64,000 bases of DNA. It comes from a virus. Its lineage: Duplodnaviria > Heunggongvirae > Uroviricota > Caudoviricetes. Each line of letters begins with the position of its first letter. Within the stretch, counting starts at the first letter, position 1. Below the pieces are notes generated by a model. It made no database searches, had not been told where the DNA came from, and saw nothing but the letters and a program-made list of their open reading frames with translations. Below, in pieces: positions 6,778-51,513 of this stretch. The stretch spans positions 19,467 to 83,466 of the IMG/VR virus record IMGVR_UViG_3300010430_000005, one strand, 5' to 3'. The position numbers were made by a program, and so were the translations under genes.

Positions 6778-7184
6778 ACATAACTTTTGAAGGGGCGGTT
6801 CCGGATTTCATAACAGAAGAAATGCAAAAATTATCTGACTTTGTTGTTGAGTATTTTGGCCCTGGGTTAGACTGCGAAGTGGTAATGGTTTTTGACGATA
6901 ACATGGCAGAGCACGAGCACGGATTTATTGGGCAGACTAATGATGATAGCTACGAAGCGGAGATAAACTCTAACATGTCGTACGAGGAAACCATTCGAAG
7001 CATATTTCACGAAATGGTACATGCGCACCAGTTGTTCTCTGGTAAATTGGTCGTGGAGAAAAGCAATAAATACTGGGAAGGACAATGTTTTTCGCAATGC
7101 GAATATAGCGATTCTCCTTGGGAAATAGAAGCCCACCAAAAAGAAAATGACATGTATTCATTATGGGAGTTCAAGTATGGATGA
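6774..7184 (+). CDS. hypothetical protein with HExxH (zinc-metallopeptidase-like) motif
   Basis: ATGA overlap start. The motif FHEMVHAHQ contains HEMVH. Confidence 0.4.
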   Translation: MNITFEGAVPDFITEEMQKLSDFVVEYFGPGLDCEVVMVFDDNMAEHEHGFIGQTNDDSYEAEINSNMSYEETIRSIFHEMVHAHQLFSGKLVVEKSNKYWEGQCFSQCEYSDSPWEIEAHQKENDMYSLWEFKYG

Positions 7185-8805
7185 GATAGACACAAAACAG
7201 CTAATAATAGAAGCTTATCTAGATATAGTAGAAACGAATATGGCCGTGCCGGTCCAAAGCGATTTTGTCGAATACGGCATAAAACGAGGCGCCATCCGTT
7301 ACCATTTTGGTAACATGGAAAACCTGCATAGATATATAAGCAATAACCATAAAAATGCTATTAGCGAATATTTCTCTACGGTAGACAATGTCTTCAAAGG
7401 CGGCGAGTACGTCGAGCAAAATATGAACAAGAAAAAATATGTCGTGACAACTGCTGTTGCGGATGCTAAGGCACACAAAGGTTTTCTTGATTCTATAAAA
7501 CATTACTGCAAAACCCACGATGCTAGCATAATAATAATGCCTTGCGAAAGCATCACTAACAGTTTTGAGCGCAGAACTGCGACTTTTGATAAAGAATTCA
7601 ACAACGAAGATTATATATTCGTCACAGACGACACTCAGCTAAACGAAAATATTTCGTTATGTAGCATTCAAGTATCGGCCAAGCAAATAAAGCCCATAAC
7701 GGGCCTTAACCGAATAGGTCACCGTGAGGGTTCTTATGTTTTTGCGAGTCCGAAGCAATTCTTAGAGTACGTACCCACAGGACATTCTAGGGGTAAAAAC
7801 TATGCTGTCATGACTCCGGGCGCATGCACCAAACCAAGTTATTATTCGGATACGTTTGTTTCTAAACGACTTTCCTACATCGCGGACCATGACCACACAT
7901 ACGGTGCACTAATAATCGAGATAGAGGACGACAAGACTTTCCACTTCAGACAAGTGCAGGCAGATGAAGAAGGTAAATTTATTGATTTAGGTGTGATGTA
8001 CTCGCCCGAAGGAACAACTAAAGATGTAGAAACTAATGTTATATTGGGCGATGTGCATGCGGCGCAGGTAGACAAAGATGTAGTAGATTCTTTCATAGGA
8101 GCAATGAAAGACATAAACATAAAAAGGTGCTTCCTACACGACATATTTGACGGACACTCTATAAACCACCACATTACAACAATAGGCGAAAGAGCTATGA
8201 GAGCTCTGTATAAAGAGCAATCACTAGAAGAAGAGCTCAGAGTTACTTGGTCCGTAATCAATCACATAAGAGAAGGTTTGGGTGCTGACCACACATATGT
8301 AGTAAAATCTAACCACGATGAGTTTCTTGATCGTTACTTGAAAGAAGGTAGGTATATAGATGACCCAGAAAACCATTACATTAGCTTAAAGATAGCACCT
8401 TCTCTTTTTGGGGAGCTTTGCGGAGATCCTTTGGTGGCCGGTCTAATTTTATCGAACGGTATAGAAACTTTCGAGAACATAACATTCCTTCGTCGCGATT
8501 CGGACGTTACTGTGGGCGGTTCTCAATGCGCAGCACACGGAGACCTAGGCTTGAACGGTGCCAAATCCTCCCTCAACGGTTTAGAAAAAATATACGGTAA
8601 TTGTGTAGTCGGGCATGTCCACAGCGCTGCTATACAACGAGGTGTTTTTCGAGTAGGCACGTTCACTAAGATGGATATGGGATACAACAGAGGGCCTTCG
8701 TCGTGGACACATACTGCATGTCTCTTGTACGAAAATGGCCAACGACAACTCATCAATTGCGTAAATGGTAAGTTTTACAAAGATCAAGAACAAAATACGC
8801 AATAA
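7177..8805 (+). CDS. calcineurin-like metallophosphoesterase domain protein
   Basis: Ordered motifs LGDVHA (GDxH), FDGHS, KSNHDEF (GNHD/E) and VVGHVHS (GHxH). Has a large N-terminal extension. Confidence 0.55.
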   Translation: MDEIDTKQLIIEAYLDIVETNMAVPVQSDFVEYGIKRGAIRYHFGNMENLHRYISNNHKNAISEYFSTVDNVFKGGEYVEQNMNKKKYVVTTAVADAKAHKGFLDSIKHYCKTHDASIIIMPCESITNSFERRTATFDKEFNNEDYIFVTDDTQLNENISLCSIQVSAKQIKPITGLNRIGHREGSYVFASPKQFLEYVPTGHSRGKNYAVMTPGACTKPSYYSDTFVSKRLSYIADHDHTYGALIIEIEDDKTFHFRQVQADEEGKFIDLGVMYSPEGTTKDVETNVILGDVHAAQVDKDVVDSFIGAMKDINIKRCFLHDIFDGHSINHHITTIGERAMRALYKEQSLEEELRVTWSVINHIREGLGADHTYVVKSNHDEFLDRYLKEGRYIDDPENHYISLKIAPSLFGELCGDPLVAGLILSNGIETFENITFLRRDSDVTVGGSQCAAHGDLGLNGAKSSLNGLEKIYGNCVVGHVHSAAIQRGVFRVGTFTKMDMGYNRGPSSWTHTACLLYENGQRQLINCVNGKFYKDQEQNTQ

Positions 8806-8992: not shown

Positions 8993-10720
8993 GTGACTAA
9001 AAAAGAAAAAGACCCGGAGATCAAAGACGTATCTAAGTATGTTGATTTTGATCCAGAGATTACAGAGAACGAACAAGTATCTGAAGCCCTAACACCCGCA
9101 GAAAGAAGGAAACGCGGCCAAGTTATGCGTCGCTATAAGTCCAAAATAGCTGCCGGTAAGCGAAGAGCATCCAAGAAGAGAGCTACGCCGGAGAAACTAA
9201 AGAAAAGAGCTATTAAAAAAGCTAGAGGGTTGATCAAGGACAAGCTGAACAAGTCTAAGTCATATTCCGAAATGTCTGCTGCCGAAAAGGTGGCGCTAGA
9301 TAAGAGAATGGAAAAGATTCCGCAGGCTAGAATAGACAGGTTGGCCAAAAAGCTATTGCCTCAAGTCAAAAAAGACGAGTTAGAACGTATGTCTAAGAAG
9401 AAATCGACGAATGAAGAATTCGAATTATTTCTTGAAAATTGCTGTTTCCCAAAAAGATATCATAAATTACTCACTAAAGACAACTGCGTAAACATAGATC
9501 GTAGATTCAAGATGTACAGGCAGAGGTTTTTAGAAGACGAAAATTTGCACGAAGTTCTAAAGAAAGTAGATGGTAGATGGGCTCTAGTAAGCCGTAAAGA
9601 TCCGTCTAAAGTTCTCCAATATTACGATGGTGAAGGCAAACCTTCAGATGAGTGGGTAAATAAAGTCGAAAAAAGAGTTCAGATGTTTAAACACATGGGT
9701 GAAGAGCATGGCGCTGGCGAATGGGGTACTGACGAGCTAACAGACAAATACAAAAAAGATACTCCAGGTGAAAGCTTGAATGAAAATGCTCTAGGTGCTC
9801 TTAGGTGGGCTACAAAGGCACATTCTGGCCAGAAAAGAAGAAGTGGGGAGCCTTACATTAACCACCCAAAAGAAGTTGCTAGGTTCGTCAAGCAGTTTAA
9901 GAAGTCTCATAACCTGGATGCTCTAATATCGGCAGCTTACTTGCACGACACAATCGAAGACACTGACACGACCCACCAAGACTTAGTTCGTCAATTCGGT
10001 GGCCTTATAGCCGATATGGTTAAAGAACTTACTAGCGACAAAAAAGCTATCGAAGCCATGGGCAAGGGAGAATACATCGCTCAGAAAATGACCAAAATGA
10101 GCAGTTGGGCCCTAGTCGTAAAGCTAGCAGACAGGCTAGCAAATGTCCAAGACATAGATTCGCAATCGCCAGAGTTTCAGAAGAAGTATGCCAACCAAAC
10201 CAAGGTGGCGTTAGACAGGCTGAGAAAAGACCGCGTTTTGACAAAGGCCCACGGTGACCTTATTGATGCTATAGAGAAAAAGATAAAAGAGTATGTCACC
10301 GAGGGTAACCTAATGGGTGTAAACGAGTCTTTCGAGGCTTTGTTAGAGCAAGATTCGTGTGATATAATCACAATGGGGCAAATGAAGGCTTTTGAAAAAT
10401 TTGTGGATAGGATATTCGATAAGTACGATATAGATTTCCAATTCACAAAACACTTCGGAGACCGCATGAGTGACGATAGAAATAAACCATGCATAAAGAT
10501 GAAAGAATTAGCCGACTTTGTTACGAAGATATATAAAAGACAAGGTAAATCCCTAAAAGCAGAAGTAGGCGCCGAAGCAGTAATAAAAGATATGCAATCA
10601 GATTTGAATATTCCTTTGGTTGTGAAATATGACCAAAAGAATGACGAATTCGACATTGTTATGAAGACTATAATGCGCAAAAAGAATTTCAAAACGCCAA
10701 ACAAAGTGATAGAATACTGA
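8993..10720 (+). CDS. RelA/SpoT-type HD-domain protein (candidate (p)ppGpp / alarmone hydrolase) with Lys/Arg-rich N-terminus
   Basis: GTG start with GAAGGAG RBS. HSGQKRRSGEPYINHP...AAYLHDTIEDT matches the RelA/SpoT hydrolase HD motif (R-x-SGEPYI-x-HP ... LHDxxEDT). Preceded by TATAAATA at 8960. Confidence 0.6.
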   Translation: MTKKEKDPEIKDVSKYVDFDPEITENEQVSEALTPAERRKRGQVMRRYKSKIAAGKRRASKKRATPEKLKKRAIKKARGLIKDKLNKSKSYSEMSAAEKVALDKRMEKIPQARIDRLAKKLLPQVKKDELERMSKKKSTNEEFELFLENCCFPKRYHKLLTKDNCVNIDRRFKMYRQRFLEDENLHEVLKKVDGRWALVSRKDPSKVLQYYDGEGKPSDEWVNKVEKRVQMFKHMGEEHGAGEWGTDELTDKYKKDTPGESLNENALGALRWATKAHSGQKRRSGEPYINHPKEVARFVKQFKKSHNLDALISAAYLHDTIEDTDTTHQDLVRQFGGLIADMVKELTSDKKAIEAMGKGEYIAQKMTKMSSWALVVKLADRLANVQDIDSQSPEFQKKYANQTKVALDRLRKDRVLTKAHGDLIDAIEKKIKEYVTEGNLMGVNESFEALLEQDSCDIITMGQMKAFEKFVDRIFDKYDIDFQFTKHFGDRMSDDRNKPCIKMKELADFVTKIYKRQGKSLKAEVGAEAVIKDMQSDLNIPLVVKYDQKNDEFDIVMKTIMRKKNFKTPNKVIEY

Positions 10721-10721
10721 T

Positions 10722-11171
10722 ATGCTAAAATATAAAGATTACGTTTCCGGTTTGGAGGTCTACACGCCAAACCGGAAACAAACATTAGATATGCCTAGAG
10801 GCAGAATGCCCCAAGTTCCTGACGACGCTTTGGGTGAGCTTGCAGATTTCTTTGACGGTAAGGGGATAACTCTGACCTCTAAAAAGGTTAAGGCAGATAC
10901 GCTCCAAGCATCTCAGCGCAATTTCAATAAAGATAAGATACTCAGTGCGGCAGCAAACTATGCTACATCAGACAAAGCCCCACCAATAATAGTATCTAAA
11001 GATAATTATGTTATAGATGGGCACCACAGATGGTTAGGTGCGCTTAATGTTGGGGGCGAAATTCGTGTGTTACAATCTTCAGAAAACGCTAAAGAAACCA
11101 TAGAAGCTATGCTAGACTTTCCTAAGTCATTCAAAAAGAACATAAACGAGAGCTCACAAAGAATGATTTGA
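10722..11171 (+). CDS. ParB/sulfiredoxin-fold nuclease-like protein
   Basis: Contains the DGHHR motif (VIDGHHRWLGA). Confidence 0.5.
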   Translation: MLKYKDYVSGLEVYTPNRKQTLDMPRGRMPQVPDDALGELADFFDGKGITLTSKKVKADTLQASQRNFNKDKILSAAANYATSDKAPPIIVSKDNYVIDGHHRWLGALNVGGEIRVLQSSENAKETIEAMLDFPKSFKKNINESSQRMI

Positions 11172-11797
11172 CTTCCATGAGACATTGCGGCGTTGAAGGG
11201 GTCGATGAGCTTTTATGGGTCAGTAAAGATAAGGGCGCATTTGGTTCTATGACTGACGGGCCTCTTTTCGACTGGATATCCGATAGTGTTAAATTCATGG
11301 AAAACGTCAAAAAATTCGAAACTGTTTTACAGGCTGGCGGTAATTGCGGAATGTATGCTAGATTCTACAGTAATTATTTCGACAGAGTAATAACATTCGA
11401 ACCAGAACCTCTTAACTTCTATTGCTTAGATCGTAATTGCGTAGGTCCTAAATTTGTTAAATACAACGGAGGCTTAGGAAACACCACAACAGAGATGGGC
11501 ATCAAGCAAGGACCGCCGACTAACGTAGGCATGCATAAGATGGTGCCTGGGGAGGGTACTAAAATGTATCGCATAGACGATCTAGATATTAACTCATGCG
11601 ATCTAATCCATCTCGATGTGGAGGGGTACGAAACGGAAGCATTAAAAGGTGCTATAGAGACAATCAAAAAGTTCATGCCAATTATCATAACCGAAAGGTC
11701 AAATGGCGAAAGTATACTAAGAGATTTAGGGTACGTTATGCAAGAGAAATTGAGGATGGATACTGTCTATGTCCCAAAAAATAAAACTGAAGTATAA
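11168..11797 (+). CDS. FkbM-family SAM-dependent methyltransferase
   Basis: Contains GGNCGMYARFYSNYF...VITFEPEP and IHLDVEGYE, typical of FkbM methyltransferases. Start uncertain (TTG at 11168 or ATG at 11177). Confidence 0.55.
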   Translation: MTSMRHCGVEGVDELLWVSKDKGAFGSMTDGPLFDWISDSVKFMENVKKFETVLQAGGNCGMYARFYSNYFDRVITFEPEPLNFYCLDRNCVGPKFVKYNGGLGNTTTEMGIKQGPPTNVGMHKMVPGEGTKMYRIDDLDINSCDLIHLDVEGYETEALKGAIETIKKFMPIIITERSNGESILRDLGYVMQEKLRMDTVYVPKNKTEV

Positions 11798-12350
11798 CAT
11801 ATCATCTTGGGATGCGTCCGGTCTTAATTTCTGGGGAATCACCAAATCAGGCAATACGTCGGTTAAACTAGCATTAATAAGTATACGAGACAGAGAGAGC
11901 AAAAGCCTTGGCGGCACTGAACAGTGGGCCCATAGTGAAAAAATGGCGAACTACATAACACCTGACGAAGCACTAGAAAATGGCAATTACAATTTTTCTG
12001 TTACGCGTCATCCTTTTGATCGTTTCGTTAGCATGTATAAAGATGCTTTAAATAGAAGAAACATATATGGTTTTTCTGGGCATTCGATCGACGATTTTAT
12101 CGAGTATGTTAAAAAGAGACCAGACTCTGAGAACAATATACATGTTAGATCACAGTCATATTTTATAGGCGATAACAATATCGAAACTATCGACTTATAC
12201 GACACCGACAGAATAGAAGAATTATTAGGTGTGCCAATATCGAAAGCAAACCCGTCCGAAGGTTTTGCAGAATTAAATGAAAAACAAAAACAAATCGTAT
12301 ATTCTTTATACGAGAAGGATTTCGAAAGATTAGGCTATGAATACAGATAA
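11769..12350 (+). CDS. sulfotransferase-family protein (PAPS-binding motifs)
   Basis: GITKSGNTS resembles the 5'-PSB loop (PKSGTTW). RHPFDRFVS resembles the 3'-PB motif (RDPxDxxxS). Confidence 0.5.
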   Translation: MSQKIKLKYNISSWDASGLNFWGITKSGNTSVKLALISIRDRESKSLGGTEQWAHSEKMANYITPDEALENGNYNFSVTRHPFDRFVSMYKDALNRRNIYGFSGHSIDDFIEYVKKRPDSENNIHVRSQSYFIGDNNIETIDLYDTDRIEELLGVPISKANPSEGFAELNEKQKQIVYSLYEKDFERLGYEYR

Positions 12351-12933
12351 ATTACTATTAGTGGCTAGCGGATTCAGTGCTAAGCAAATTAATGACTATG
12401 ACTATAAAGGAAATGGATGGAAAATAGTAACCATAAACAACGGCTGGATGGCATGTGAGGATTGGGATTATTGGGTAAGATCAAGAGATTTTACCGGGGA
12501 AAGACCAACATCTATAAAGGACTCTCAATTCGAAGTTAGAAAATACGCAGGCTCTCTAAATAAGTTCGGAGGTCATGCTGCGTGTGGGTACTCGATAACC
12601 TTATGTGCGGGATATTGGTGTTTAGATAATCTAAACCCGAAAGTTATAGGTTACTTGGACGCTGACATGAATTACACACCTGACGGTAAGGGTCACACTC
12701 ATATATACGGTGTGGGTTACGACATAGAGAAAAGAGGTATACCTGACCCAGACAGAATGGCAGAAATGCACGGAAAAGGGAACCCAAACTACCTTACAGA
12801 CATATACAATAGATTCCGAGATATAGCTAAAGATAACGATTGTAGTGTTTATAATTTCTCAAAAGATACGAATACGAGACTACCTTATAGTAAAAACGAT
12901 CCTTCAATTATAGATAAGGAGATAGAGAGTTGA
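12337..12933 (+). CDS. hypothetical protein (overlaps neighbours; same operon as methyltransferase/sulfotransferase)
   Basis: 198-aa ORF overlapping both neighbouring genes by a few codons. Confidence 0.4.
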   Translation: MNTDKLLLVASGFSAKQINDYDYKGNGWKIVTINNGWMACEDWDYWVRSRDFTGERPTSIKDSQFEVRKYAGSLNKFGGHAACGYSITLCAGYWCLDNLNPKVIGYLDADMNYTPDGKGHTHIYGVGYDIEKRGIPDPDRMAEMHGKGNPNYLTDIYNRFRDIAKDNDCSVYNFSKDTNTRLPYSKNDPSIIDKEIES

Positions 12934-13763
12934 TTACGAAAAACGATTTAAGCAAGTTAATCAAAAAAGATGTAGATGAATGGTTTGACATTATATCAGA
13001 ATTGCTGCCCATCTATAAAATAGACACTCCAGAAAGAATTGCCGGATTCCTCTCTCAGTGTTTACATGAAAGTGCTGGGTTTTCTGTGTTAGAGGAAAAC
13101 CTAAATTATAGCGAAGCCGGCCTAAACAGAACATTCGCAAAATACTTCAAAAAAGCGGGGAGAGACGCTAAACCTTATGCGAGACGACCCGAAAAGATAG
13201 CAAATCTAGTTTATGCTAATAGGATAGGTAATGGGAGTGTTTCTTCAGGAGACGGTTGGCGTTATAGAGGACGCGGAGTGATACAACTCACAGGGAAAAG
13301 CAATTACAGAGATTTTGCTAAATTCCTAAACATTAGTGTAGAAAGAGCGATTGGGTACCTAGGGACGAAGAAGGGCGCCATGGAGTCTGCGTGTTGGTTC
13401 TGGTATAAGAACAACATTAACGATTTAGCGGATAAAAGGGATGTTACCAAAATGACGAGAAAAGTCAACGGTGGCAGGCACGGTTTAGCCGAAAGAAAGC
13501 GTTGGTATAATATCATTATTGGCTTGTTTGAAGGTGATTCTTCAGAAAAAGAGGCAGTCAATTCTATAAACTTGCCTACGTTAGGTGTAGGCGATCGTGG
13601 AGATAGTGTCGCTAAGATGCAAAAAGCACTAGGTTTAAGAGCAGACGGCATATTCGGACCAAACACTAAAAGAGCAGTTAAGAAATATCAAAGAAGTAAT
13701 GGCCTAATTGCTGACGGTGTTGCGGGCCCTAAAACATTGTCAAAATTATATGGTGCACAATGA
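12930..13763 (+). CDS. endolysin: GH19 chitinase-like lysozyme with C-terminal peptidoglycan-binding domain
   Basis: The N-terminal GFLSQCLHESAGF...NYSEAGLNRTF is GH19-like. The C-terminal GDRGDSVAKMQKALGLRADGIFGPNTKRAVKKYQRSNGLIADGVAGPKT is a PG_binding_1 repeat. Confidence 0.7.
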   Translation: MITKNDLSKLIKKDVDEWFDIISELLPIYKIDTPERIAGFLSQCLHESAGFSVLEENLNYSEAGLNRTFAKYFKKAGRDAKPYARRPEKIANLVYANRIGNGSVSSGDGWRYRGRGVIQLTGKSNYRDFAKFLNISVERAIGYLGTKKGAMESACWFWYKNNINDLADKRDVTKMTRKVNGGRHGLAERKRWYNIIIGLFEGDSSEKEAVNSINLPTLGVGDRGDSVAKMQKALGLRADGIFGPNTKRAVKKYQRSNGLIADGVAGPKTLSKLYGAQ

Positions 13764-13927
13764 TAAATTTTAAACAGCATACCATCGTCGAATCTTTTCA
13801 GAAAGGCGATAAGATAGTCATAGACGGAGAATCCGTGACTATTACCAAAGTAGACAAAGAGTTTGAGATTGTATATTTTGAAGACAGTGAAGGAAAAAAA
13901 GATTCTAGAGGATTTGAAGAATTATGA
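13760..13927 (+). CDS. small hypothetical protein (55 aa)
   Basis: ATGA overlap with the endolysin stop and with the next start. Confidence 0.25.
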   Translation: MINFKQHTIVESFQKGDKIVIDGESVTITKVDKEFEIVYFEDSEGKKDSRGFEEL

Positions 13928-14478
13928 AGAATTTTTTCGAACACAATATACAAATGGCTATCGAATACCATATAGAAAAAGGCATACCTTTTAGCGAAAA
14001 TGTCTTCAGGCCCCACTCAAAAACAAACTACGCTTTATTCAGAGAAGCATCTACCATGCTAAAAGAGGGCAACTATACTCCTAACGATGAGCTAGAAGAA
14101 GAATTGTTGATGACAGATATAGGAAATTTTGGCATATACGAAGGTAAGGAAGTGCCACTAGATTTTCCTCTAAGCGAAGCAGAATACAAAGGCAGAGATG
14201 TAGATTTAGATACGCCCAAAAGAGGCGGGTCTAGAAAGTTCTATGTGTACACCAAAAACCCCGATACGGGTAAAGTCATTAAAGTAGAGTTCGGTGCTAA
14301 AGATGGCGGGCAAGATCTAGCAATTAAAATAGACGACCCCAAGGCTCGGAAAAACTTTGCCGCGAGGCATAATTGCAAAGACAAAAAAGACAAAACCAAA
14401 GCAGGCTATTGGAGTTGTAGATTGCCGTATTACGCGAAATCTTTGGGTCTATCGACCGGAGGAAACTTTTTTTGGTGA
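13924..14478 (+). CDS. hypothetical protein
   Basis: 184-aa ORF. Confidence 0.45.
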   Translation: MKNFFEHNIQMAIEYHIEKGIPFSENVFRPHSKTNYALFREASTMLKEGNYTPNDELEEELLMTDIGNFGIYEGKEVPLDFPLSEAEYKGRDVDLDTPKRGGSRKFYVYTKNPDTGKVIKVEFGAKDGGQDLAIKIDDPKARKNFAARHNCKDKKDKTKAGYWSCRLPYYAKSLGLSTGGNFFW

Positions 14479-14744
14479 AGCCTTATACAGACGTTGCGCT
14501 ATGCGAAAATTCATGGATTAGGATATTCGACATAAACAATGCAAAAGAACAAGATTTTGTTTGGCACAGAGATAGTCGAGATAGAAAGATTAAAGTCATA
14601 TATGGCGCCAATTGGTATTTCCAATACGATGATTCTATGCCTATCAACATTACAGAAGGCGATGTTTTATATGTAGAGGCAATGGAGTATCACAGACTTA
14701 TTATGGGCGATACTACTTTGGCGTTATACATACAAGAACTATGA
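14472..14744 (+). CDS. hypothetical protein
   Basis: 90-aa ORF with a non-ATG start in the track. Confidence 0.3.
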   Translation: MVKPYTDVALCENSWIRIFDINNAKEQDFVWHRDSRDRKIKVIYGANWYFQYDDSMPINITEGDVLYVEAMEYHRLIMGDTTLALYIQEL

Positions 14745-14791: not shown

Positions 14792-15349
14792 ATGTCACTT
14801 TGGGGCAATACAGATAACCTTGCGGGTGCGCCTAAATGGCTAGCGCCAACATTAACTATAGACGCAACATCAAATACGGTTGTTATTGCGGCGTCGGATT
14901 CTATAGTTTATGCTGACCATGGCCTAGTTACTGGAGACCCAGTAACTTATTCTAGCGACGATGCAAATAACGTAATAGTCGGCCTTACCGACTCTACTCT
15001 ATACTACGCTATCAGAGTAGACGAAGACACTATCAAATTAGCTAGCAACACATCAAACGCAATTGCGGGTACTGCTGTTGATATTACAGATGTTGGTCTT
15101 AACGATGCTGACACTCTACAGAAAACACCAGATAACCTTTATTTTGTAGACACGACTGAAGTAGGTGTTGCTGCAAACAAAGCAAAGGGCTTCACTGCTC
15201 CTGGCTGGTGGGTATACGAAACATATACAGATAGCGGCTCAAATACTCGCCATAAAGCTGTTTGTGTTGCGGAACTATCTGTTGCGGTCGGTACATCTGG
15301 CGATGCTGGCGTCGACGGTAGCGATGACGCGGTTGTTGCTGATTCCTAA
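14792..15349 (+). CDS. Ser/Thr/Asp/Ala-rich hypothetical protein, possibly virion-associated
   Basis: RBS aaaggagaagttcATG. Composition resembles capsid-decoration or fibre proteins. Has a late promoter. Confidence 0.45.
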   Translation: MSLWGNTDNLAGAPKWLAPTLTIDATSNTVVIAASDSIVYADHGLVTGDPVTYSSDDANNVIVGLTDSTLYYAIRVDEDTIKLASNTSNAIAGTAVDITDVGLNDADTLQKTPDNLYFVDTTEVGVAANKAKGFTAPGWWVYETYTDSGSNTRHKAVCVAELSVAVGTSGDAGVDGSDDAVVADS

Positions 15350-20646: not shown

Positions 20647-21459
20647 ATGGAAGTCAAATGGGCAGTAAGCACTGGAGTTTTTGATAGACCAGGCTTTCTT
20701 AAAATAACAGACGCTCTTGATAGAGCAGGCATAGAGTATTTTCAGAGTGAATATGATACAGTATCTCGAAAATACAAAGACATACCATATGGCGTAGATG
20801 AATGTGTCGTCATGTATGGTCCTATCCAATTCGTTAAAAATAATGACAAAGGATTTTTGCCTGGTCCTTTTGGGTACGAAAACCCAAACACAACTCAATA
20901 TATGTCCAAATTGCCTATAGAATGGTTCTTTAATAGTGAATCTATCTATCTTCCGTTTGGGCAAATAATGTCTAAGATCGACTTTATAAATAAGGTGTAC
21001 GGTGACAGACTATTCATAAGACCAGATTCGGGGTTCAAAAGTTTCACCGGATTTAACGTCAACATCGAAGATTTAGAATTTGAATTATCCTCTAGGGCAC
21101 AGACAGAACCTGTTTTTTATGACGAATTGTGTCTTGTAGCTAAAGAAAAACAAATACTTGGAGAATATAGATTTGTCATTTGCGACAAAAAAGTCGTAAC
21201 TGGCTCCCAATATAGATATGACGGAGTGTTGGATATTCGTATTGACGTAAACAGCGATGCTCTGAAAATGGCAGAGAAAGTCGCTCAACACCCTTGGCAG
21301 ATGGATACATGTTACGTTGTAGATATATTTCTGGACGCTCTAGGTGCGCCTAGCATTGGAGAATTCAATAGTTTTTCGAGTAGTGGGCTTTATAGTTGCG
21401 ACGTGGATAAGATAGTAAAAGAAGTAAGTGCTTGTGCACTAAAAGAATGGGAATTTTGA
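20647..21459 (+). CDS. hypothetical protein, possibly ATP-grasp fold
   Basis: The C-terminal SIGEFNSFSSSG resembles the ATP-grasp E-x-N motif. Weak evidence. Confidence 0.35.
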   Translation: MEVKWAVSTGVFDRPGFLKITDALDRAGIEYFQSEYDTVSRKYKDIPYGVDECVVMYGPIQFVKNNDKGFLPGPFGYENPNTTQYMSKLPIEWFFNSESIYLPFGQIMSKIDFINKVYGDRLFIRPDSGFKSFTGFNVNIEDLEFELSSRAQTEPVFYDELCLVAKEKQILGEYRFVICDKKVVTGSQYRYDGVLDIRIDVNSDALKMAEKVAQHPWQMDTCYVVDIFLDALGAPSIGEFNSFSSSGLYSCDVDKIVKEVSACALKEWEF

Positions 21460-21939
21460 ATGATAAGAGCGATTTTAGCTTGCGACGACGGTTGGGGTAT
21501 AGGTAAAGATAATAAACTCCCTTGGCCTCATAACAGTGCGGATCTTAAATGGTTTAAAGAATGCACATATAATGGCATCGTTGTTATGGGAAGAAACACA
21601 TGGGATAGCTTGCCATCAAAACCTCTTAAAGGTAGGACGAACATGGTCGTTTCTGATACCATGAGCCCAAGAAATGATTGCGAGGTTGTCAAGTCTGACA
21701 TATTCAAGTCTCGCATGTCTGTAGTGAAAGGTCACGAAACAAGGGACTTGTGGGTCATAGGTGGCGCTAAACTTTTCTCTACTGCATTAGACATAATTGA
21801 TGAGATTTGGTTAAGTCGTATAGAATACGAGTATGGTTGCGATGTGTTTCTGCCATCTTCAGATATAAAGTCACAGTTTGTATTATCTGAGAACATGTTT
21901 GGAGAAGGGTTACATATTGAGAAGTGGACACGTAAATGA
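21460..21939 (+). CDS. frd: dihydrofolate reductase
   Basis: ILACDDGWGIGKDNKLPW ... VMGRNTWDSLP ... LWVIGGAKLF match DHFR motifs. Confidence 0.85.
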   Translation: MIRAILACDDGWGIGKDNKLPWPHNSADLKWFKECTYNGIVVMGRNTWDSLPSKPLKGRTNMVVSDTMSPRNDCEVVKSDIFKSRMSVVKGHETRDLWVIGGAKLFSTALDIIDEIWLSRIEYEYGCDVFLPSSDIKSQFVLSENMFGEGLHIEKWTRK

Positions 21940-22808
21940 AACAGTATTTAGATGCTTTGAGATTCGTTAAAGAAAATGGGGAGTTTGTAGATGACCGGAC
22001 CGGTGTGGGAACTAAATCAGTCTTTGGATACCAAATGCGATTTAACTTGCAAGATGGCTTTCCTGCAGTCACAACAAAAAGACTTGCATGGAAATCAGTC
22101 GTCGGAGAACTTATCTGGTTTATTGAAGGAAGCACAGATGAACGAAGATTGGCTGAAATTACATATGGAAAGCCTAGAGAAGCCCTTGTGGGAAAGAATA
22201 CTATTTGGACAGCAAATGCTGATAAGCAAGGCAAAGAACTCGGATACGAAAACCACGATATGTATAAAGGACTCGGCCCAGTCTACGGCGCGCAGTGGCG
22301 CAACTTCGACGGCTTCGGATCATACAGCGGAACAGACCAGCTCGAATGGCTTGCCAATGAAATACGAACCAATCCAGATTCGAGACGACTTATCTTATCA
22401 GCATGGAACCCTAACCAGCTGGACGAAATGGCATTGCCGCCCTGTCATACTCTCGCCCAATTCCGTGTATATAACGGCAAGTTGAGTTGTCAGTTATACC
22501 AAAGATCGGCGGATTTGCCTTTGGGAATTCCGTTCAATATTGCATCATATTCGCTGTTAACGCACATATTTGCGCAACTATGTGGGCTTGAAGTAGGCGA
22601 CTTTGTCCATACCATAGGGGATGCGCACATATACCAGAATCAAATTCCGTTCGTTGAAAAGCAACTTGAAAGAAAACCGAAGTCGCTGCCTACTCTTCAA
22701 ATGCCAACATTCACGACATTAGAAGAAGTTTTTGATACGACTCCTAGCGACTATAAACTAATCGGATACGACCCTTATCCTACTATAAAAATCCCCTTCG
22801 CAGTATAG
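21936..22808 (+). CDS. td: thymidylate synthase (no intron)
   Basis: PPCHTLAQF active-site motif, DLPLGIPFNIASYSLL and GDAHIY. Continuous 290-aa ORF. Confidence 0.9.
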   Translation: MKQYLDALRFVKENGEFVDDRTGVGTKSVFGYQMRFNLQDGFPAVTTKRLAWKSVVGELIWFIEGSTDERRLAEITYGKPREALVGKNTIWTANADKQGKELGYENHDMYKGLGPVYGAQWRNFDGFGSYSGTDQLEWLANEIRTNPDSRRLILSAWNPNQLDEMALPPCHTLAQFRVYNGKLSCQLYQRSADLPLGIPFNIASYSLLTHIFAQLCGLEVGDFVHTIGDAHIYQNQIPFVEKQLERKPKSLPTLQMPTFTTLEEVFDTTPSDYKLIGYDPYPTIKIPFAV

Positions 22809-29152: not shown

Positions 29153-29776
29153 ATGATTGTCATGCAGGGTAAATTGCCGCGTAAAGTTAGTGTAGCATGT
29201 AGCGGGGGTGTCGATAGTATGGCCGTCGTCGACTTCCTAAAACGAAATCATAATGTGACTTTGTTGTTTTTTCATCACGGCACAGAAACCAGCGAAAAAG
29301 CATACCAATTCCTTAAATCGTATTCTTCAGCTAACGGCGTAGAATTAATATCAGAACGCATTAAAGATACTTCTGTTCCTAAAGATCAGAGTCAAGAGGA
29401 ATATTGGCGTAATTGTCGATATAAGTTTTTCCTTAACCGCGACGAGCCCGTTGTAACATGCCACCACCTTGACGATTGTGTCGAGACTTGGGTTTGGAGC
29501 TCTTTGAATGGAAACGGCAAGATCATTCCTTACAATAACCGTAACGTTATTAGGCCCTTTAGGGTCAATAAAAAGTCTGAATTTGTTTCTTGGGCCAAAC
29601 GAAATGATGTGCCGTGGGTAGAGGACGAGAGCAACAAAGATACAAAATATACTCGAAATTTTATTAGACACGAAATGATGCCAAAAGTTTTGACTGTTAA
29701 TCCCGGCATCCACAAAACTATTGCTAGAAAGGTGAGAAAAGATTATGGGAAATTATGTAGTAAAACCTCCTGTTGA
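29153..29776 (+). CDS. PP-loop (SGGxDS) ATP-pyrophosphatase family protein (TilS/QueC-like N-type ATPase)
   Basis: VACSGGVDSMAVVDFL PP-loop motif near the N-terminus. About 207 aa. Confidence 0.55.
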   Translation: MIVMQGKLPRKVSVACSGGVDSMAVVDFLKRNHNVTLLFFHHGTETSEKAYQFLKSYSSANGVELISERIKDTSVPKDQSQEEYWRNCRYKFFLNRDEPVVTCHHLDDCVETWVWSSLNGNGKIIPYNNRNVIRPFRVNKKSEFVSWAKRNDVPWVEDESNKDTKYTRNFIRHEMMPKVLTVNPGIHKTIARKVRKDYGKLCSKTSC

Positions 29777-36429: not shown

Positions 36430-36799
36430 TGACATAATATTGTGGGTTGGCCTACCTGGTTCGGGCAAAACCTACAATGCCCAAAAATACTGTGATATTG
36501 TCATTGATGATATCACTGACCTTTCGCAGTTACCATCCTCAGAAGAAATTAAAGGAAAGCGATTGGGTATCGCAGATGTAAACTTCTGCGACAAGAAAAT
36601 TCTTCACAAAGCAATATCAAAAATCTTGGAAATTTATCCAAGCGCAATGATTGACATATATTATTTTGAAAATGACGTCGACAAATGTCGTGCTAATGTG
36701 TTATATCGTAATGATGGTAGAAATGTAGAAGGAACCATTCTAAGATTTGAAAAAATATACGAACCGCCTAAGTGGGCGGCTAAAATATGGAGTGAATAA
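36422..36799 (+). CDS. P-loop kinase (polynucleotide 5'-kinase-like, stand-alone)
   Basis: Walker A VGLPGSGKTY at the N-terminus. 125 aa. Sits directly upstream of an RNA ligase. Confidence 0.45.
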   Translation: MYSDIILWVGLPGSGKTYNAQKYCDIVIDDITDLSQLPSSEEIKGKRLGIADVNFCDKKILHKAISKILEIYPSAMIDIYYFENDVDKCRANVLYRNDGRNVEGTILRFEKIYEPPKWAAKIWSE

Positions 36800-36800
36800 A

Positions 36801-37853
36801 ATGCTACTAACACGCGACGAATTCAGAAATAAAGTTTTTGAACGAGATAACCATCGTTGCGTGATATGTGGCGCAACTGAAAGTGATACTGTCAAACTTG
36901 ATGCACATCACATCATTGAACGCCGTTTGTGGTTGGATGGTGGCTATTATGTTGATAATGGGGCAACTCTTTGCGATAAAGGCGAAGATGGTTGTCACAT
37001 GAAAACAGAAATCACAACATTGTCAGTTGACGATATTCGCATTGCTGCCAACATTCAAAAACCTATCATACCAGAAGATATGTATGCAGACCACGTTTAT
37101 GACAAATGGGGTAATATCATATTGGGCAATGGAACCAGAACTAAGGGTCCGTTGTTTGGAGACGAATCTGTTCAAAAGGTTTTGTCGAAACATCCAAACT
37201 TTGAAAGTTTGTTTGTTGACTATGTGAAATATCCGAGAACTTATCACCTTCCATGGTCATTGGGTATTACGGATGATGATCGTATTATGCGTGATTTGTC
37301 TAATTTCGAAGGTAAGCGTGTTATTGTTACACGTAAAATGGATGGCGAAAATTTCACAGGATATAATGACTATAGTCATGCACGTTCTGTGGATGGACGC
37401 CACCATTATACCAGAGATTGGGCAAAGAATTTTTGGATGCAGCGTTCTTATGAATTGCCAAAAGGATGGCGTGTATGCGCTGAAAATCTCTATGCAGTCC
37501 ATTCAATTCGGTATGATGATCTTGACAGTTATCTTATGGGGTTTTCGATTTGGAATGATAAAAACGAATGCCTGTCTTGGGATGAAACAGTAGAATGGTT
37601 TCAACTTCTAGACATTCCTAGCGTTCCAGTCTTGTATGACGGTATCTTTGATGAAGAAAAGATCAAATCTCTTTATGATGTAAAGGAAGATTATGATAAT
37701 CATGAAGGGTATGTTATGCGAACTGCGGATGGGTTCAACTATGGAAATTTTAAAAATTGTGTTGCTAAATTCGTAAGACCAAATCACGTGCAATCGCAAA
37801 AGCACTGGTTTTATGGGAGAAGCGACCATGATGTAAATGGGATGAAAGAATGA
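36801..37853 (+). CDS. HNH-motif domain fused to Rnl2-like ATP-dependent RNA ligase
   Basis: RBS ggagtgaataaaATG. N-terminal HNH motif CVICG...LDAHHIIERRLW...NGATLC...CH. Nucleotidyltransferase motif I VTRKMDGENFTGY (compare Rnl2 KIHGTNF). Confidence 0.5.
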   Translation: MLLTRDEFRNKVFERDNHRCVICGATESDTVKLDAHHIIERRLWLDGGYYVDNGATLCDKGEDGCHMKTEITTLSVDDIRIAANIQKPIIPEDMYADHVYDKWGNIILGNGTRTKGPLFGDESVQKVLSKHPNFESLFVDYVKYPRTYHLPWSLGITDDDRIMRDLSNFEGKRVIVTRKMDGENFTGYNDYSHARSVDGRHHYTRDWAKNFWMQRSYELPKGWRVCAENLYAVHSIRYDDLDSYLMGFSIWNDKNECLSWDETVEWFQLLDIPSVPVLYDGIFDEEKIKSLYDVKEDYDNHEGYVMRTADGFNYGNFKNCVAKFVRPNHVQSQKHWFYGRSDHDVNGMKE

Positions 37854-39261: not shown

Positions 39262-40686
39262 ATGAACACTTTTTCTAACGCAGTTGCTAATATCAAATCA
39301 AAAGAAATCTCACGCACCGAAAACGGTATGAAAGCTTTTGCTACTTCCGATTCTAAAGTTCTTGACCTATTTGGTAAGATCGGTTCTGGTCGCGGTCGTG
39401 ATATGTCTCGCGAATTTATGGCAGCACTTGGTGAAGATCAAGAACTTGCGATTCGTGTTCTCCTATGGGCACGTGATGTTCGTGGTGGTGCGGGTGAACG
39501 CGAAACTTTCCGTTCGCTACTAAAGGCGCTAGAAAACGGCAATCCGACACTTGCTGGTAAAATCATGCACCTAATCCCGGTTCTGGGTCGTTGGGATGAT
39601 CTGTTCGTGTATGAGGATGCTATCAACCGTAAAGCAGCACTTCGCATGTATGCAGATGCTCTTACGGACGGAAATGGTCTAGCCGCAAAATGGGCACCGC
39701 GTGAAAAGTCAACCAAGAAAGAACGTGCAGCAATGCTACGCAAATTCATGGGTCTTTCACCTAAGGAATATCGTAAACTCCTAGTCTCGAATACGAATGT
39801 TGTGGAGACTCAAATGTGCGCGAAGGACTGGGGAGGTATCGACTTTTCGAAAGTTCCTTCTCTAGCGTCTGCACGTTATCAAAAGGCATTTGGTCGTAAT
39901 GCGAGCGAGCAATATGCAGCATACATTCGTGAACTCCAAAAGCCTCAGGCAGAGCGCAATCCGAAAGTTAAAATTAATGCTGGTGCAGTATACCCATATG
40001 ATATTGTGAAGTCTCTATCAAAAGGTAATGCTGCTGTTGCGGATGCACAATTCGAAGCACTCCCAAACTATGTAGGTGATTCTAAAATCCTACCAATGGT
40101 TGATGTTTCGGGTTCTATGTATACTCCACTTGCTGGAAATACCAATGCACTTGAAGTTGCTATCTCACTAGGTCTGTATCTTTCTGACCGCACCAGTTCT
40201 GATTTTAAGGACATGTTCCTTACTTTCTCTGGTGAGTCAAAGATCGAAACCCTAAAAGGTAGTCTGTCACAGAAGTATAACCAACTTCGTCGTGCGGAAT
40301 GGGGAATGAACACTAACCTACACTCTGCGTTTGAGGAAATTCTTCGAGTTGCAAAGGACGGCAATGTCTCGCAAGAGAACATGCCAGACACTGTTCTTAT
40401 CCTTAGTGATATGCAGTTTGATCGTTGCGTTCGTCACGATGACAATGCTCTTGGCATGATTAAACGCAAATATGCAGAAGCGGGATACACTATGCCTTCT
40501 GTTGTATTCTGGAACCTAACTGCACGTGCTGATAACACACCAGTTAAAACTAACGACAAAGGCGTTGCCCTTGTTTCGGGTTTTAGTCCAGCGATCATGG
40601 CAACGGTTCTTGGTGCGGATCCTACGGAATTTACACCATATGCAATGATGCTAAACACTATCATGAGCGACCGTTACAATTTTTAA
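39262..40686 (+). CDS. rsr: Ro60-like protein (TROVE domain + C-terminal vWA/MIDAS domain)
   Basis: RBS aaaggagaatataagATG. N-terminal TROVE-like region (LFGKIGSGRGRD...IRVLLWARDVRGGAGER...LIPVLGRWDDL). vWA MIDAS motif MVDVSGSM with a downstream Ser/Thr/Asp series. Same architecture as bacterial Rsr. Confidence 0.65.
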   Translation: MNTFSNAVANIKSKEISRTENGMKAFATSDSKVLDLFGKIGSGRGRDMSREFMAALGEDQELAIRVLLWARDVRGGAGERETFRSLLKALENGNPTLAGKIMHLIPVLGRWDDLFVYEDAINRKAALRMYADALTDGNGLAAKWAPREKSTKKERAAMLRKFMGLSPKEYRKLLVSNTNVVETQMCAKDWGGIDFSKVPSLASARYQKAFGRNASEQYAAYIRELQKPQAERNPKVKINAGAVYPYDIVKSLSKGNAAVADAQFEALPNYVGDSKILPMVDVSGSMYTPLAGNTNALEVAISLGLYLSDRTSSDFKDMFLTFSGESKIETLKGSLSQKYNQLRRAEWGMNTNLHSAFEEILRVAKDGNVSQENMPDTVLILSDMQFDRCVRHDDNALGMIKRKYAEAGYTMPSVVFWNLTARADNTPVKTNDKGVALVSGFSPAIMATVLGADPTEFTPYAMMLNTIMSDRYNF

Positions 40687-51291: not shown

Positions 51292-51513
51292 ATGTTGACT
51301 CAAGAAACTAAAAAACTGTTTGTTTCTTTCGCAAAAGATGCGCCGAACTGGAGCGGAACTCCTCTACTTGACATCACATCGGCCCAACGAGGCAATTTGT
51401 CCGACCTCAAGAAAAAGGGGCTGGTCGAAACATTTCGCGATGAAGGTTGCGATTGGGTTATCTTTACAAAGGCCGGTGAAGAGTTGGCGGCAGAATATGG
51501 TTATGAGGTGTGA
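51292..51513 (+). CDS. hypothetical protein
   Basis: RBS caaggagatacacgATG. Confidence 0.45.
   Translation: MLTQETKKLFVSFAKDAPNWSGTPLLDITSAQRGNLSDLKKKGLVETFRDEGCDWVIFTKAGEELAAEYGYEV

What the first reader, a model, noticed from the sequence alone, without database searches (positions are those of the whole stretch)
10722..12933. Overlapping four-gene cluster: ParB-like nuclease, FkbM methyltransferase, sulfotransferase and an unknown protein
The genes overlap by a few codons, which suggests translational coupling. They encode a DGHHR nuclease fold, an FkbM-family O-methyltransferase and a PAPS-type sulfotransferase (KSGNTS / RHPFDRFVS). Sulfotransferases are rare in phages. Together with a methyltransferase this suggests modification of a glycan, a virion component or a host envelope polymer (for example superinfection exclusion), or a nucleotide or sugar modification pathway.
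Basis: partly seen in the sequence, partly recalled or inferred. Interest (0 to 1): 0.6.

Follow-up and report, generated by a model that had tools for sequence, protein, structure and literature searches.

The report
Phage sugar-tailoring cassette around new transferase
An uncultured large phage carries a methyltransferase, a sulfotransferase and a previously unannotated sialyltransferase-like enzyme that together look like a kit for building a methylated, sulfated sugar decoration, something not yet described for phages; the fourth gene, the "ParB-like nuclease", belongs to a different module.

Summary
The four + strand ORFs are real and the quoted motifs are present. Profile searches confirm the FkbM methyltransferase (11177-11797) and a Sulfotransfer_2 enzyme (11769-12350) with both PAPS-binding motifs and an invariant candidate catalytic His.

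The "unknown" 198-aa protein X (12337-12933) is the key gene. It has no Pfam or PHROG match. Its high-confidence model (pLDDT 94.7) is closest to the Maf flagellin glycosyltransferase and GT42 sialyltransferase, and next to MptE/thiamine pyrophosphokinases.

X defines a family of about 290 clusters at 50% identity. In relatives, X is the constant element. It sits next to, or is fused with, variable sulfotransferases, methyltransferases and GT-A glycosyltransferases. This supports a glycan-building and tailoring cassette. The acceptor is unknown: virion protein is my best guess, and DNA or a small molecule are not excluded.

The ParB/Srx-fold protein (10722-11171) travels instead with the upstream mosaic HD protein and its relatives, in a polyvalent-protein-like module. 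Nuclease activity is not shown. Gene overlaps are genome-wide, not specific to this cluster.

Verdict: partly supported; a new variant of a known kind; moderately interesting.

The parts
12337..12933 (+). X: 198-aa soluble protein and conserved core of the cassette. It has the Maf/GT42 sialyltransferase-like (DUF115 superfamily) Rossmann fold and is a predicted nucleotide-sugar transferase. Family-wide conserved residues: S11, N34, D51, G84, D110, Y113, Y124, G125, D137, N173.
11769..12350 (+). PAPS-type sulfotransferase (Sulfotransfer_2), 193 aa. 5'-PSB TKSGNTS is at nt 11841-11861, 3'-PB RHPFDRFVS at nt 12006-12032, and the candidate catalytic His55 is invariant.
   Evidence: PF03567 E=1.2e-12. 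Alignment A2 invariants are K6, G28, H55, R80, P82, F110 and F185. A weak profile match to plant SOT16 aligns the His and the 3'-PB. A 42% identical homolog sits directly upstream of X in L005, L013, L016 and L018.
11177..11797 (+). FkbM-family SAM-dependent methyltransferase, 206 aa from ATG 11177 (209 aa if TTG 11168 is used).
   Evidence: PF05050 E=1.3e-9. TIGR01444 scores 50.6 bits against a cut-off of 37.7. phrog_8156 E=6e-29. Homologs flank X in L004, L008, L010, L012, L024, L032, L033, L036 and L038.
10722..11171 (+). Single-domain ParB/Srx-fold protein (149 aa) with an invariant DGHHRW motif (nt 11016-11033). It is a neighbour, NOT part of the transferase cassette. It belongs to a module with the upstream HD protein.
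8993..10720 (+). Context: a 575-aa mosaic protein with a basic N-terminus, an HD_4 (RelA/SpoT-type hydrolase) domain and a C-terminal module. It shares modules with the 475-1138-aa proteins that lie next to X and the ParB-like gene in relatives; those of about 840-1138 aa that were scanned carry CTP_transf_like and DUF5824 domains.
   Evidence: ParB-like homologs P0245-7 carry a segment of this protein at their C-terminus.
12930..13763 (+). Context: endolysin (GH19-like lysozyme plus PG_binding_1) with a TTG start that overlaps the X stop by 4 nt. It is a backbone gene, not part of the cassette.
   Evidence: phrog_181 E=4e-74 and PF01471. In relatives it follows the ParB-like gene rather than X.

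Best explanation
Genes 11177-12933 form a three-gene glycan-building and tailoring cassette. All three enzymes are soluble and cytoplasmic.

Proposed mechanism:
- X is a small, single-domain member of the Maf/GT42 (sialyltransferase-like, DUF115) fold. It most likely transfers a sugar from a nucleotide-activated donor onto an acceptor. By analogy with its closest folds, the donor would be a CMP-activated acidic sugar such as Kdo or a nonulosonic acid supplied by the host.
- The Sulfotransfer_2 enzyme then adds sulfate from host PAPS.
- The FkbM enzyme adds an O-methyl group from SAM.

Across related phages X is constant while its partners are swapped: sulfotransferases of three Pfam families, several methyltransferase families and GT-A glycosyltransferases. 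This is the pattern expected for a structure under diversifying selection.

The acceptor is not identified. My best guess is a phage virion protein glycosylated before assembly.

The ParB/Srx-fold gene is a separate element, tied to the mosaic HD protein in a polyvalent-protein-like early module.

Shown: the folds, motifs, family assignments, synteny and fusions. Inferred: that X is catalytically a glycosyltransferase, the donor type, the order of reactions and the acceptor.
For: (1) MT and ST assignments score above curated thresholds, and the PAPS motifs and His55 are conserved.

(3) hhalign aligns the X N-terminal loop and NN motif with Cst-II residues 1-34, including GNGPS and Asn31. The family-wide D110-x-x-Y113...Y124 motif resembles the Cst-II D154-x-Y156...Y162 motif that binds the ribose and phosphate (conservation; Cst-II residue roles from my own knowledge).

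(4) Rosetta-stone fusions in relatives:
- Methyltransf_11-X (L015, L017, L019, L020).
- Sulfotransfer_1-X (L023), and a homologous N-terminal domain fused to X in L024, L026, L027, which on its own gives only a sub-threshold Sulfotransfer_3 hit (E=0.044).
- PF11397 GlcNAc-transferase-X (L030, L031, L035).
Among 147 family representatives, the only Pfam domains found besides one Pterin_4a are methyltransferases, sulfotransferases and glycosyltransferases (GT2, GT32-type, GT44 TcdA/B, GT77, GT90, Stealth).

(5) Immediate neighbours of X in about 25 distinct loci are Sulfotransfer_2, Methyltransf_21, Methyltransf_11/23 or GT25.

(6) The same ST, MT21 and MT11/23 enzymes also cluster together without X, beside other GT-like genes, as expected of a tailoring toolkit.

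(7) None of the proteins has a transmembrane segment.

(8) Maf enzymes can use CMP-Neu5Ac and CMP-Kdo (bioRxiv 10.1101/2020.06.03.131540, title and abstract).
Against: - No sequence-level link exists between X and any curated GT family: no Pfam hit for any member and no PDB sequence hit.
- The fold core is shared with pyrophosphokinases at nearly the same Z (MptE 10.0, SteA 10.0, TPK 9.6).
- No equivalent of the Cst-II catalytic His188 was identified. An invariant Asp (D137) is only a guess.
- No CMP-sugar synthesis genes were seen among the window ORFs scanned with profile libraries.
- No acceptor was identified.
- The cassette lies among early, replication and nucleotide-metabolism genes rather than structural genes.
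- ST homologs also occur without X.
- One family member is fused to Pterin_4a.
Confidence: 0.5

Rival explanations
1. X is a pyrophosphokinase or kinase, like MptE (HPPK) or thiamine pyrophosphokinase. The cassette then caps or activates hydroxyl groups (pyrophosphate, sulfate, methyl) on a small molecule, for example a pterin-like or nucleoside metabolite, a host immune signal or an antiphage compound, rather than building a glycan.
Against: Fewer residues align with the kinases (116-126) than with Maf and Cst-I (150-157). Fusions and neighbours include at least seven different glycosyltransferase families, which a small-molecule capping role does not explain. The conserved Tyr pair fits the GT42 pattern (plus own knowledge).
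Confidence: 0.15
2. The cassette hypermodifies phage DNA: a sugar is attached to a modified base and then methylated or sulfated, to evade restriction, as in T-even hmC glycosylation.
For: The location is among replication and nucleotide-metabolism genes (gp32, gp59, UvsX, DnaB, primase, RNR, ThyA). A dCMP deaminase lies next to X in L011. A constant core with variable tailoring is typical of an arms race. The enzymes are cytoplasmic.
Against: The window encodes a canonical thymidylate synthase (PF00303 E=2e-97; 48% identical to E. coli ThyA, with the Asn of PFNIASY and the C-terminus intact). No dCMP or dUMP hydroxymethylase was found among the window ORFs scanned. No known DNA glycosyltransferase has this fold (own knowledge). 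GT44, GT90 and PF11397 partners are typical protein glycosyltransferases (plus own knowledge).
Confidence: 0.1
3. The cassette remodels a host envelope polymer at the cytoplasmic face (a lipid-linked LPS or capsule precursor, or flagellin before export). This would block superinfection or alter the receptor.
For: Maf enzymes glycosylate flagellin in the cytoplasm, and GT42 enzymes sialylate LOS (one search hits; own knowledge). GT25 (an LPS family) is a neighbour. There is a weak KpsS/C-like neighbour in L058.
Against: This appears to be a lytic-type large phage: no integrase or lysogeny genes were seen among the window ORFs scanned. The enzymes have no membrane anchor. X lacks the flagellin-binding flanking domains of Maf (198 aa against 632 aa).
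Confidence: 0.12
4. There is no joint function: the four (or three) genes are unrelated accessory genes that happen to be packed together in a compact genome.
For: Overlaps are genome-wide. ST homologs occur without X. X occurs alone in L022, L028 and L037.
Against: There are repeated independent fusions of X with ST, MT and GT domains, and recurrent adjacency across loci in which X is only 43-66% identical to the window protein.
Confidence: 0.05

Closest known systems
Maf (motility-associated factor) flagellin nonulosonic-acid glycosyltransferases (DUF115/MAF_flag10; PDB 5mu5)
   Different: Identity is only 10%, and neither X nor any of its 147 family representatives gives a Pfam PF01973 hit. 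X is 198 aa and lacks the N- and C-terminal acceptor-binding domains of the 632-aa Maf. The context is a phage, with no flagellar genes.
GT42 sialyltransferases Cst-I/Cst-II of Campylobacter jejuni (PDB 2p56, 1ro7)
   Different: hhalign probability is only 27%. No counterpart of the catalytic His188 was identified. The spacing between the two Tyr residues is 11 rather than 6. There is no membrane-association tail.
MptE-type 6-hydroxymethyl-dihydropterin pyrophosphokinase and thiamine pyrophosphokinases (PDB 8sd5, 3mel, 9hjc)
   Different: Fewer residues align (103-126). The partner domains of the X family are glycan enzymes, not cofactor-pathway enzymes.
Carbohydrate sulfotransferases of Pfam Sulfotransfer_2 (HNK-1ST/CHST, HS2ST type), and phage sulfotransferases of unknown role
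   Same: Profile match above threshold, with 5'-PSB and 3'-PB motifs and a conserved His.
   Different: It is short (193 aa) and soluble, with no Golgi-type anchor. There is no detectable relative in deposited phage genomes. Phage sulfotransferases reported so far belong to Sulfotransfer_3 and are functionally unassigned (PMC10580990).
Phage glycosylation cassettes of glycosyltransferase plus O-methyltransferase (mycobacteriophage virion glycosylation); T-even DNA glucosyltransferases
   Same: Phage-encoded, cytoplasmic and variable between related phages, combining a transferase with tailoring enzymes (own knowledge; virion-glycosylation papers listed).
   Different: The glycosyltransferase fold differs (GT-A/GT-B there, Maf/GT42-like here). 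Sulfation is not described there. The target here is unknown.
ParB/Srx superfamily domains of phage polyvalent proteins (DdrB-like ParB; Iyer et al. 2017, PMC5512222)
   Same: The ParB-like gene is a solo ParB/Srx domain with the conserved active-site Arg (DGHHRW). Its modules are shuffled with a large mosaic protein carrying HD or nucleotidyltransferase domains.
   Different: It was not shown to belong to the DdrB-like clade. It lies in an early/replication context rather than next to virion genes. No nuclease or NTPase activity was tested.

Membership tests
Sulfotransfer_2 (PF03567) PAPS-dependent sulfotransferases | Profile score above Pfam's gathering threshold | tested here: met
   49 bits against a cut-off of 22, E=1.2e-12, residues 19-141.
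Sulfotransfer_2 (PF03567) PAPS-dependent sulfotransferases | 5'-phosphosulfate-binding loop (K-x-G-x-T-S/T) and 3'-phosphate-binding motif (R-x-P-x-x-R-x-x-S) | tested here: met
   TKSGNTS at residues 25-31 and RHPFDRFVS at 80-88. G28, R80 and P82 are invariant in 9 homologs; K26, T30, R85 and S88 are invariant in the 5 close ones.
Sulfotransfer_2 (PF03567) PAPS-dependent sulfotransferases | Catalytic base His between the two motifs | tested here: inconclusive
   His55 is invariant and aligns with the catalytic-His region of SOT16, but only in a weak profile match (E=0.76).
Sulfotransfer_2 (PF03567) PAPS-dependent sulfotransferases | Sulfate transfer from PAPS to a carbohydrate hydroxyl | not testable with these tools
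   Needs an enzyme assay.
FkbM-family methyltransferases (PF05050 / TIGR01444) | Profile score above curated cut-offs | tested here: met
   PF05050 scores 38.9 bits against 22.7. TIGR01444 scores 50.6 bits against 37.7.
FkbM-family methyltransferases (PF05050 / TIGR01444) | Glycine-rich SAM-binding motif I | tested here: inconclusive
   The sequence 'VLQAGGNCGMY' lies at the start of the profile match. It was judged by eye only.
ParB/Srx superfamily | ParB/Srx alpha+beta fold | tested here: met
ParB/Srx superfamily | Conserved active-site Arg in the box II-equivalent motif | tested here: met
   DGHHRW is invariant in 14 sequences and aligns with the ParB motif 'GERRW'.
ParB/Srx superfamily | Pfam ParBc/ParBc_2 profile above threshold | tested here: not met
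   PF08857 gives E=0.034, 14.7 bits against 23.6. However, homologs at 35-40% identity carry PF02195.
Chromosome/plasmid partition ParB | HTH DNA-binding and C-terminal dimerisation domains, with a ParA partner | tested here: not met
   The protein is 149 aa with a single domain. No ParA is adjacent.
   Structural neighbours include kinases (SbnI, SerK, sulfiredoxin) and CTP-binding proteins as well as ParB-type domains annotated as nucleases.
GT42 / Maf (DUF115, PF01973) CMP-sugar glycosyltransferases | Sequence-profile membership | tested here: not met
   No Pfam hit for X or for the X domain of 147 representatives. No PDB sequence hit. hhalign against Cst-II gives probability 27%.
GT42 / Maf (DUF115, PF01973) CMP-sugar glycosyltransferases | Fold | tested here: met
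GT42 / Maf (DUF115, PF01973) CMP-sugar glycosyltransferases | Nucleotide-binding loop after strand 1, Asp for the ribose and two Tyr for the phosphate (Cst-II G8-S12, D154, Y156, Y162) | tested here: inconclusive
   S11/G12, N34, D110, Y113 and Y124 are 94-99% conserved in 193 sequences. Only the N-terminal part was aligned by a program; the rest is by eye and from memory.
GT42 / Maf (DUF115, PF01973) CMP-sugar glycosyltransferases | Catalytic base (Cst-II His188) | tested here: inconclusive
   There is no conserved His. H122 is variable, and invariant D137 is a candidate only.
MptE / thiamine pyrophosphokinase | Fold core | tested here: met
MptE / thiamine pyrophosphokinase | Pathway context (folate or thiamine genes) and ATP-dependent pyrophosphoryl transfer | tested here: not met
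   Neighbours and fusions are ST, MT and GT enzymes, with a single Pterin_4a fusion. Activity is not testable here.

The most novel reading that the evidence does not exclude
X founds a new glycosyltransferase family that, so far, is found mainly on phage-like metagenomic contigs. It has a Maf/GT42-like fold and no sequence link to any curated family. With its interchangeable sulfotransferase and methyltransferase partners, it would place a sulfated, O-methylated acidic sugar (for example Kdo or a nonulosonic acid taken from the host CMP-sugar pool) on virion proteins, or less likely on DNA. That would be the first sulfated glyco-modification described for a tailed phage, and a functional answer to the question of what phage sulfotransferases do.
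Probability: 0.3. Interest if true: 0.75.

Novelty: new variant of a known kind. Interest (0 to 1): 0.55.

Why it matters
Phage-encoded sulfotransferases are repeatedly noted in metagenomes, but their role is explicitly unknown (PMC10580990). This locus ties one to a conserved transferase core and to methyltransferase and glycosyltransferase partners. That gives a concrete hypothesis that can be tested by expression: a sulfated, methylated glycan made in the infected cell.

X is an unannotated family of about 290 clusters at 50% identity. It is absent from Pfam, PHROGs and all deposited phage genomes. It would merit a new family definition and could supply a compact (about 190 aa) sugar transferase for glycoengineering.

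The variable-partner architecture also suggests an arms-race surface or nucleic-acid decoration in a lineage of uncultured phages, whose contigs range up to 145-210 kb.

Tried and rejected
- DNA and protein searches of the cluster, the ST and X against 50,697 phage records found nothing.
- Close-pattern IMG/VR scans with single proteins found nothing. Alignment-based scans worked.
- The word-based homolog search for the ST found only itself, and its exact-sequence look-up failed.
- PDB sequence searches with X, with its profile and with the ST gave only spurious or weak hits.
- The afdb50 fold library was unavailable.
- The bacterial context of distant X homologs in Phyllobacterium was uninformative: a lone gene between sodB and a histidine kinase.
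- Literature searches for MptE, DUF115, Maf or sialyltransferase in phages found nothing on this family.
- I considered and rejected a four-gene operon that includes the ParB-like gene (synteny).
- I rejected overlap as evidence of specific coupling.
- I rejected hydroxymethyl-pyrimidine DNA as an obvious acceptor, because the thymidylate synthase is canonical.
- I rejected membrane-bound envelope enzymes, because there are no TM segments.
- Promoter and terminator scans were no better than shuffled sequence.
Full report
OBSERVATION

The window is a gene-dense, single-strand stretch of a large uncultured phage. The crude coding fraction is about 0.95 and all long ORFs are on the + strand. Identified genes include gp32, gp59, UvsX, DnaB, primase, class I RNR, ThyA, a T5 A1-like protein, RNA-repair genes and an endolysin. 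There is no DNA match in 50,697 deposited phage genomes. The closest cultured relative of the A1-like protein is Ochrobactrum phage vB_OspM_OC, at 42% identity.

They recur with 100% identical products on three independent metagenome contigs (L001-L003), so this is a circulating genome and not an assembly artefact. The motifs DGHHR, (T)KSGNTS and RHPFDRFVS are all present.

The junctions are as follows:
- MT/ST overlap by 29 nt.
- ST/X overlap by 14 nt.
- X/endolysin overlap by 4 nt.
- ParB-like/MT overlap by 4 nt only with a TTG start. The ATG at 11177, which gene callers use and which fits homolog alignments, leaves a 5-nt spacer.

Such overlaps are the rule in this genome. With crude longest-ORF calls, 46 of 104 adjacent pairs overlap, and a continuous run of overlapping or nearly abutting genes (gaps of at most 1 nt) spans 8993-14744. 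The overlaps therefore say nothing specific about these four genes.

THE TWO ANNOTATABLE ENZYMES

The second gene is an FkbM-family methyltransferase. PF05050 scores 38.9 bits against a cut-off of 22.7. TIGR01444 scores 50.6 bits against 37.7. phrog_8156 gives E=6e-29.

The third gene is a Sulfotransfer_2 enzyme, at 49 bits against a cut-off of 22. In an alignment with homologs from related phages, G28, H55, R80 and P82 are invariant. Within the closer group the whole 5'-PSB loop and 3'-PB motif are invariant. A weak profile match to plant SOT16 aligns His55 and the 3'-PB motif with the catalytic His and the R-x-x-x-D-x-x-x-S segment of cytosolic sulfotransferases.

One public gene call truncates this protein to 135 aa and loses the PSB loop. 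The 193-aa form is the conserved one.

THE UNKNOWN PROTEIN X

X (12337-12933) has no Pfam, PHROG, NCBIfam or PDB sequence match. It does have 86 close homologs of about 190 aa, all metagenomic hypothetical proteins. An exhaustive profile search found 287 representatives at 50% identity.

Viral structure hits are weak and include proteins labelled MptE-like. X therefore belongs to the DUF115/Maf/GT42/TPK structural superfamily. More of the protein matches the glycosyltransferases than the kinases.

hhalign places the first strand, its loop and the NN motif of X on Cst-II residues 1-34 (probability 27%). I checked that the Cst-II sequence I used is identical to 1RO7.

Across 193 family sequences the most conserved residues are S11, N34, D51, G84, D110, Y113, Y124, G125, G127, D137, P138 and N173. 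The D110-x-x-Y113...Y124 pattern resembles Cst-II D154-x-Y156...Y162, which bind the CMP ribose and phosphate. Those Cst-II roles come from my own knowledge of the Cst-II literature and were not tested here. No equivalent of the catalytic His188 is evident. D137 is only a candidate base.

COMPARATIVE CONTEXT

This is the decisive evidence. I collected contexts of X from exact-protein look-ups (L004-L009) and from an alignment-based IMG/VR scan (L010-L038). I compared them by BLAST, clustering and Pfam.

X is the constant element and its partners vary:
- Sulfotransfer_2 lies directly upstream in the window, L005-7, L013, L016, L018, L023, L033 (two copies) and L036. In L032 one small ORF separates it from X.
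- Methyltransf_21 lies beside X in the window, L004, L008, L010, L012, L024, L032, L033, L036 and L038.
- Methyltransf_11/23 lies directly upstream in L008, L012, L014 and L021. In L010 a second, shorter methyltransferase ORF separates it from X.
- GT25 lies directly downstream of the MT11-X fusion in L015 and three genes upstream of X in L038.

X is also physically fused to partner domains:
- A Methyltransf_11 domain (L015, L017, L019, L020).
- A Sulfotransfer_1 domain (L023). L024, L026 and L027 carry a homologous N-terminal domain (41% identical full-length to the L023 fusion) that on its own gives only a sub-threshold Sulfotransfer_3 hit (E=0.044).
- A PF11397 GlcNAc-transferase domain (L030, L031, L035).

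In the 147 best family representatives the X domain never hits Pfam. The domains fused to it are methyltransferases (Methyltransf_23/21/12/11/31/25/24, TylF), sulfotransferases (Sulfotransfer_2, Sulfotransfer_1, Gal-3-O-sulfotransferase) and glycosyltransferases (PF11397, GT2, Gly_transf_sug, TcdA/TcdB, Nucleotid_trans, GT90, Stealth). There is one Pterin_4a fusion.

Conversely, the same ST, MT21 and MT11/23 enzymes cluster together without X, next to other weakly GT-like genes (L055, L058). None of the window proteins has a transmembrane segment.

This pattern fits a cytoplasmic glycan-assembly and tailoring toolkit with X as its usual core.

THE ParB-LIKE GENE IS A DIFFERENT MODULE

In relatives the usual order is [tailoring enzyme]-[X]-[MT21]-[large protein]-[ParB-like]-[endolysin] (L005, L010 and L013, and L022 where X has no tailoring partner). 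In L012 the ParB-like gene lies two ORFs beyond the large protein. The large protein shares N- and C-terminal modules with the window's 575-aa HD_4 protein. In most relatives it carries a cytidylyltransferase-like domain plus DUF5824 instead of the HD domain. Some ParB-like homologs carry a segment of the HD protein at their C-terminus.

In the window, the MT-ST-X block sits between the ParB-like gene and the endolysin. In relatives the X cassette lies upstream of the large protein. Solo and shuffled ParB/Srx domains in mosaic phage proteins match the 'polyvalent protein' theme, where they are proposed to be NTP-regulated DNases or NTP sensors of early infection (PMC5512222). The four-gene unit is therefore really one gene plus three.

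MECHANISM AND RIVALS

Best explanation (confidence 0.5): X transfers a sugar from a nucleotide-activated donor, probably a CMP-activated acidic sugar from the host pool. Maf enzymes are reported to use CMP-Neu5Ac and CMP-Kdo (10.1101/2020.06.03.131540). The sulfotransferase and the FkbM methyltransferase then decorate the product using host PAPS and SAM. The variable partners imply diversifying selection on the product.

The acceptor is unknown. A virion protein is my preferred guess. A Ser/Thr-rich structural-like protein lies 2 kb downstream (14792-15349), but nothing links it to the cassette.

Rivals:
- DNA hypermodification (0.10). The early, nucleotide-metabolism location fits. However, the phage has a canonical ThyA (48% identical to E. 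coli ThyA), and no hydroxymethylase was found among the window ORFs scanned.
- Host envelope or flagellin remodelling (0.12).
- Chance adjacency (0.05), which the repeated fusions contradict.

NOVELTY

Phage glycosylation cassettes and phage sulfotransferases are known as categories. The latter are explicitly without known function (PMC10580990). What is new here:
- A sequence-orphan family with a Maf/GT42-like fold, absent from Pfam, PHROGs and all deposited phage genomes.
- Its systematic coupling to sulfotransferases and methyltransferases.
- The implied sulfated glycan.

I rate this a new variant of a known kind, with interest 0.55. All functional statements beyond fold, motif and context are inference. 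The experiments that would settle them are listed under next steps.

Noticed in passing
window 8993-10720: A 575-aa mosaic protein with a very basic N-terminus, an HD_4 domain of the RelA/SpoT hydrolase type, and a C-terminal module. It shares modules with the 475-1138-aa proteins found next to X in relatives; those of about 840-1138 aa that were scanned carry CTP_transf_like and DUF5824 domains. ParB-like homologs elsewhere carry a piece of it. The pattern looks like polyvalent-protein-style domain shuffling and may point to alarmone hydrolysis early in infection.
   Followed up: partly
window 7147-8805: A T5 A1-like metallophosphoesterase ('DNA transfer protein', phrog_1745). Its best cultured match is Ochrobactrum phage vB_OspM_OC at 42%, a hint that the host may be an alphaproteobacterium. 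A 186-kb 'Hyphomicrobiales MAG' contig (L039) also carries a 53% identical X.
   Followed up: partly
window 29153-29776, 36747-37853, 39262-40686, 47387-48553, 51320-51874, 56535-57365: A dense RNA-repair-like gene set: a PP-loop ATPase, two RNA ligases (one with an HNH domain), a Ro-like RNA-binding protein, a cREC_REC cyclic-phosphate receiver domain and a Thg1-like tRNA-His guanylyltransferase. It may counter host tRNA-cleaving defences.
   Followed up: no
window 14792-15349: A 185-aa Ser/Thr/Asp-rich protein with fibre-like repeats and a 'head protein' (phrog_613) C-terminus, 2 kb downstream of X. It is a possible glycosylation target, but no evidence links it to the cassette.
   Followed up: no
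window 20647-21459 and 21936-22808: An ATP-grasp protein of the R2K clade lies just upstream of a canonical thymidylate synthase (48% identical to E. coli ThyA), separated from it by one small ORF (21460-21939).
   Followed up: partly
window 58835-59470: A PnuC-type nicotinamide mononucleotide transporter, which points to phage NAD salvage.
   Followed up: no
window 11769-12350 (public call P0001): A JGI gene call starts the sulfotransferase at Met59 (135 aa), which deletes the PAPS 5'-PSB loop. The ENA calls and the homologs support the 193-aa form.
   Followed up: yes
protein P0140 (X-family representative, 369 aa): A distant X-domain protein of bacterial-like composition is fused to a Pterin_4a (PCD/DCoH) domain. 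This is curious because MptE, a structural relative, is a pterin pyrophosphokinase. It is the only non-glycan partner domain among the 147 representatives.
   Followed up: partly
L043-L050 (Phyllobacterium chromosomes), e.g. L045 7827-8726: X homologs of about 30% identity and about 300 aa occur as lone chromosomal genes between sodB and a histidine kinase/response regulator pair, with no glycan cluster nearby.
   Followed up: partly
L055 1981-3798; L058 2606-5517: The same tailoring enzymes cluster without X. L055 has MT21, ST and MT23. L058 has MT11 and ST beside weak GT2-like and KpsS/C-like (Capsule_synth) genes. This suggests a portable sugar-tailoring toolkit shared among uncultured phages.
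   Followed up: partly
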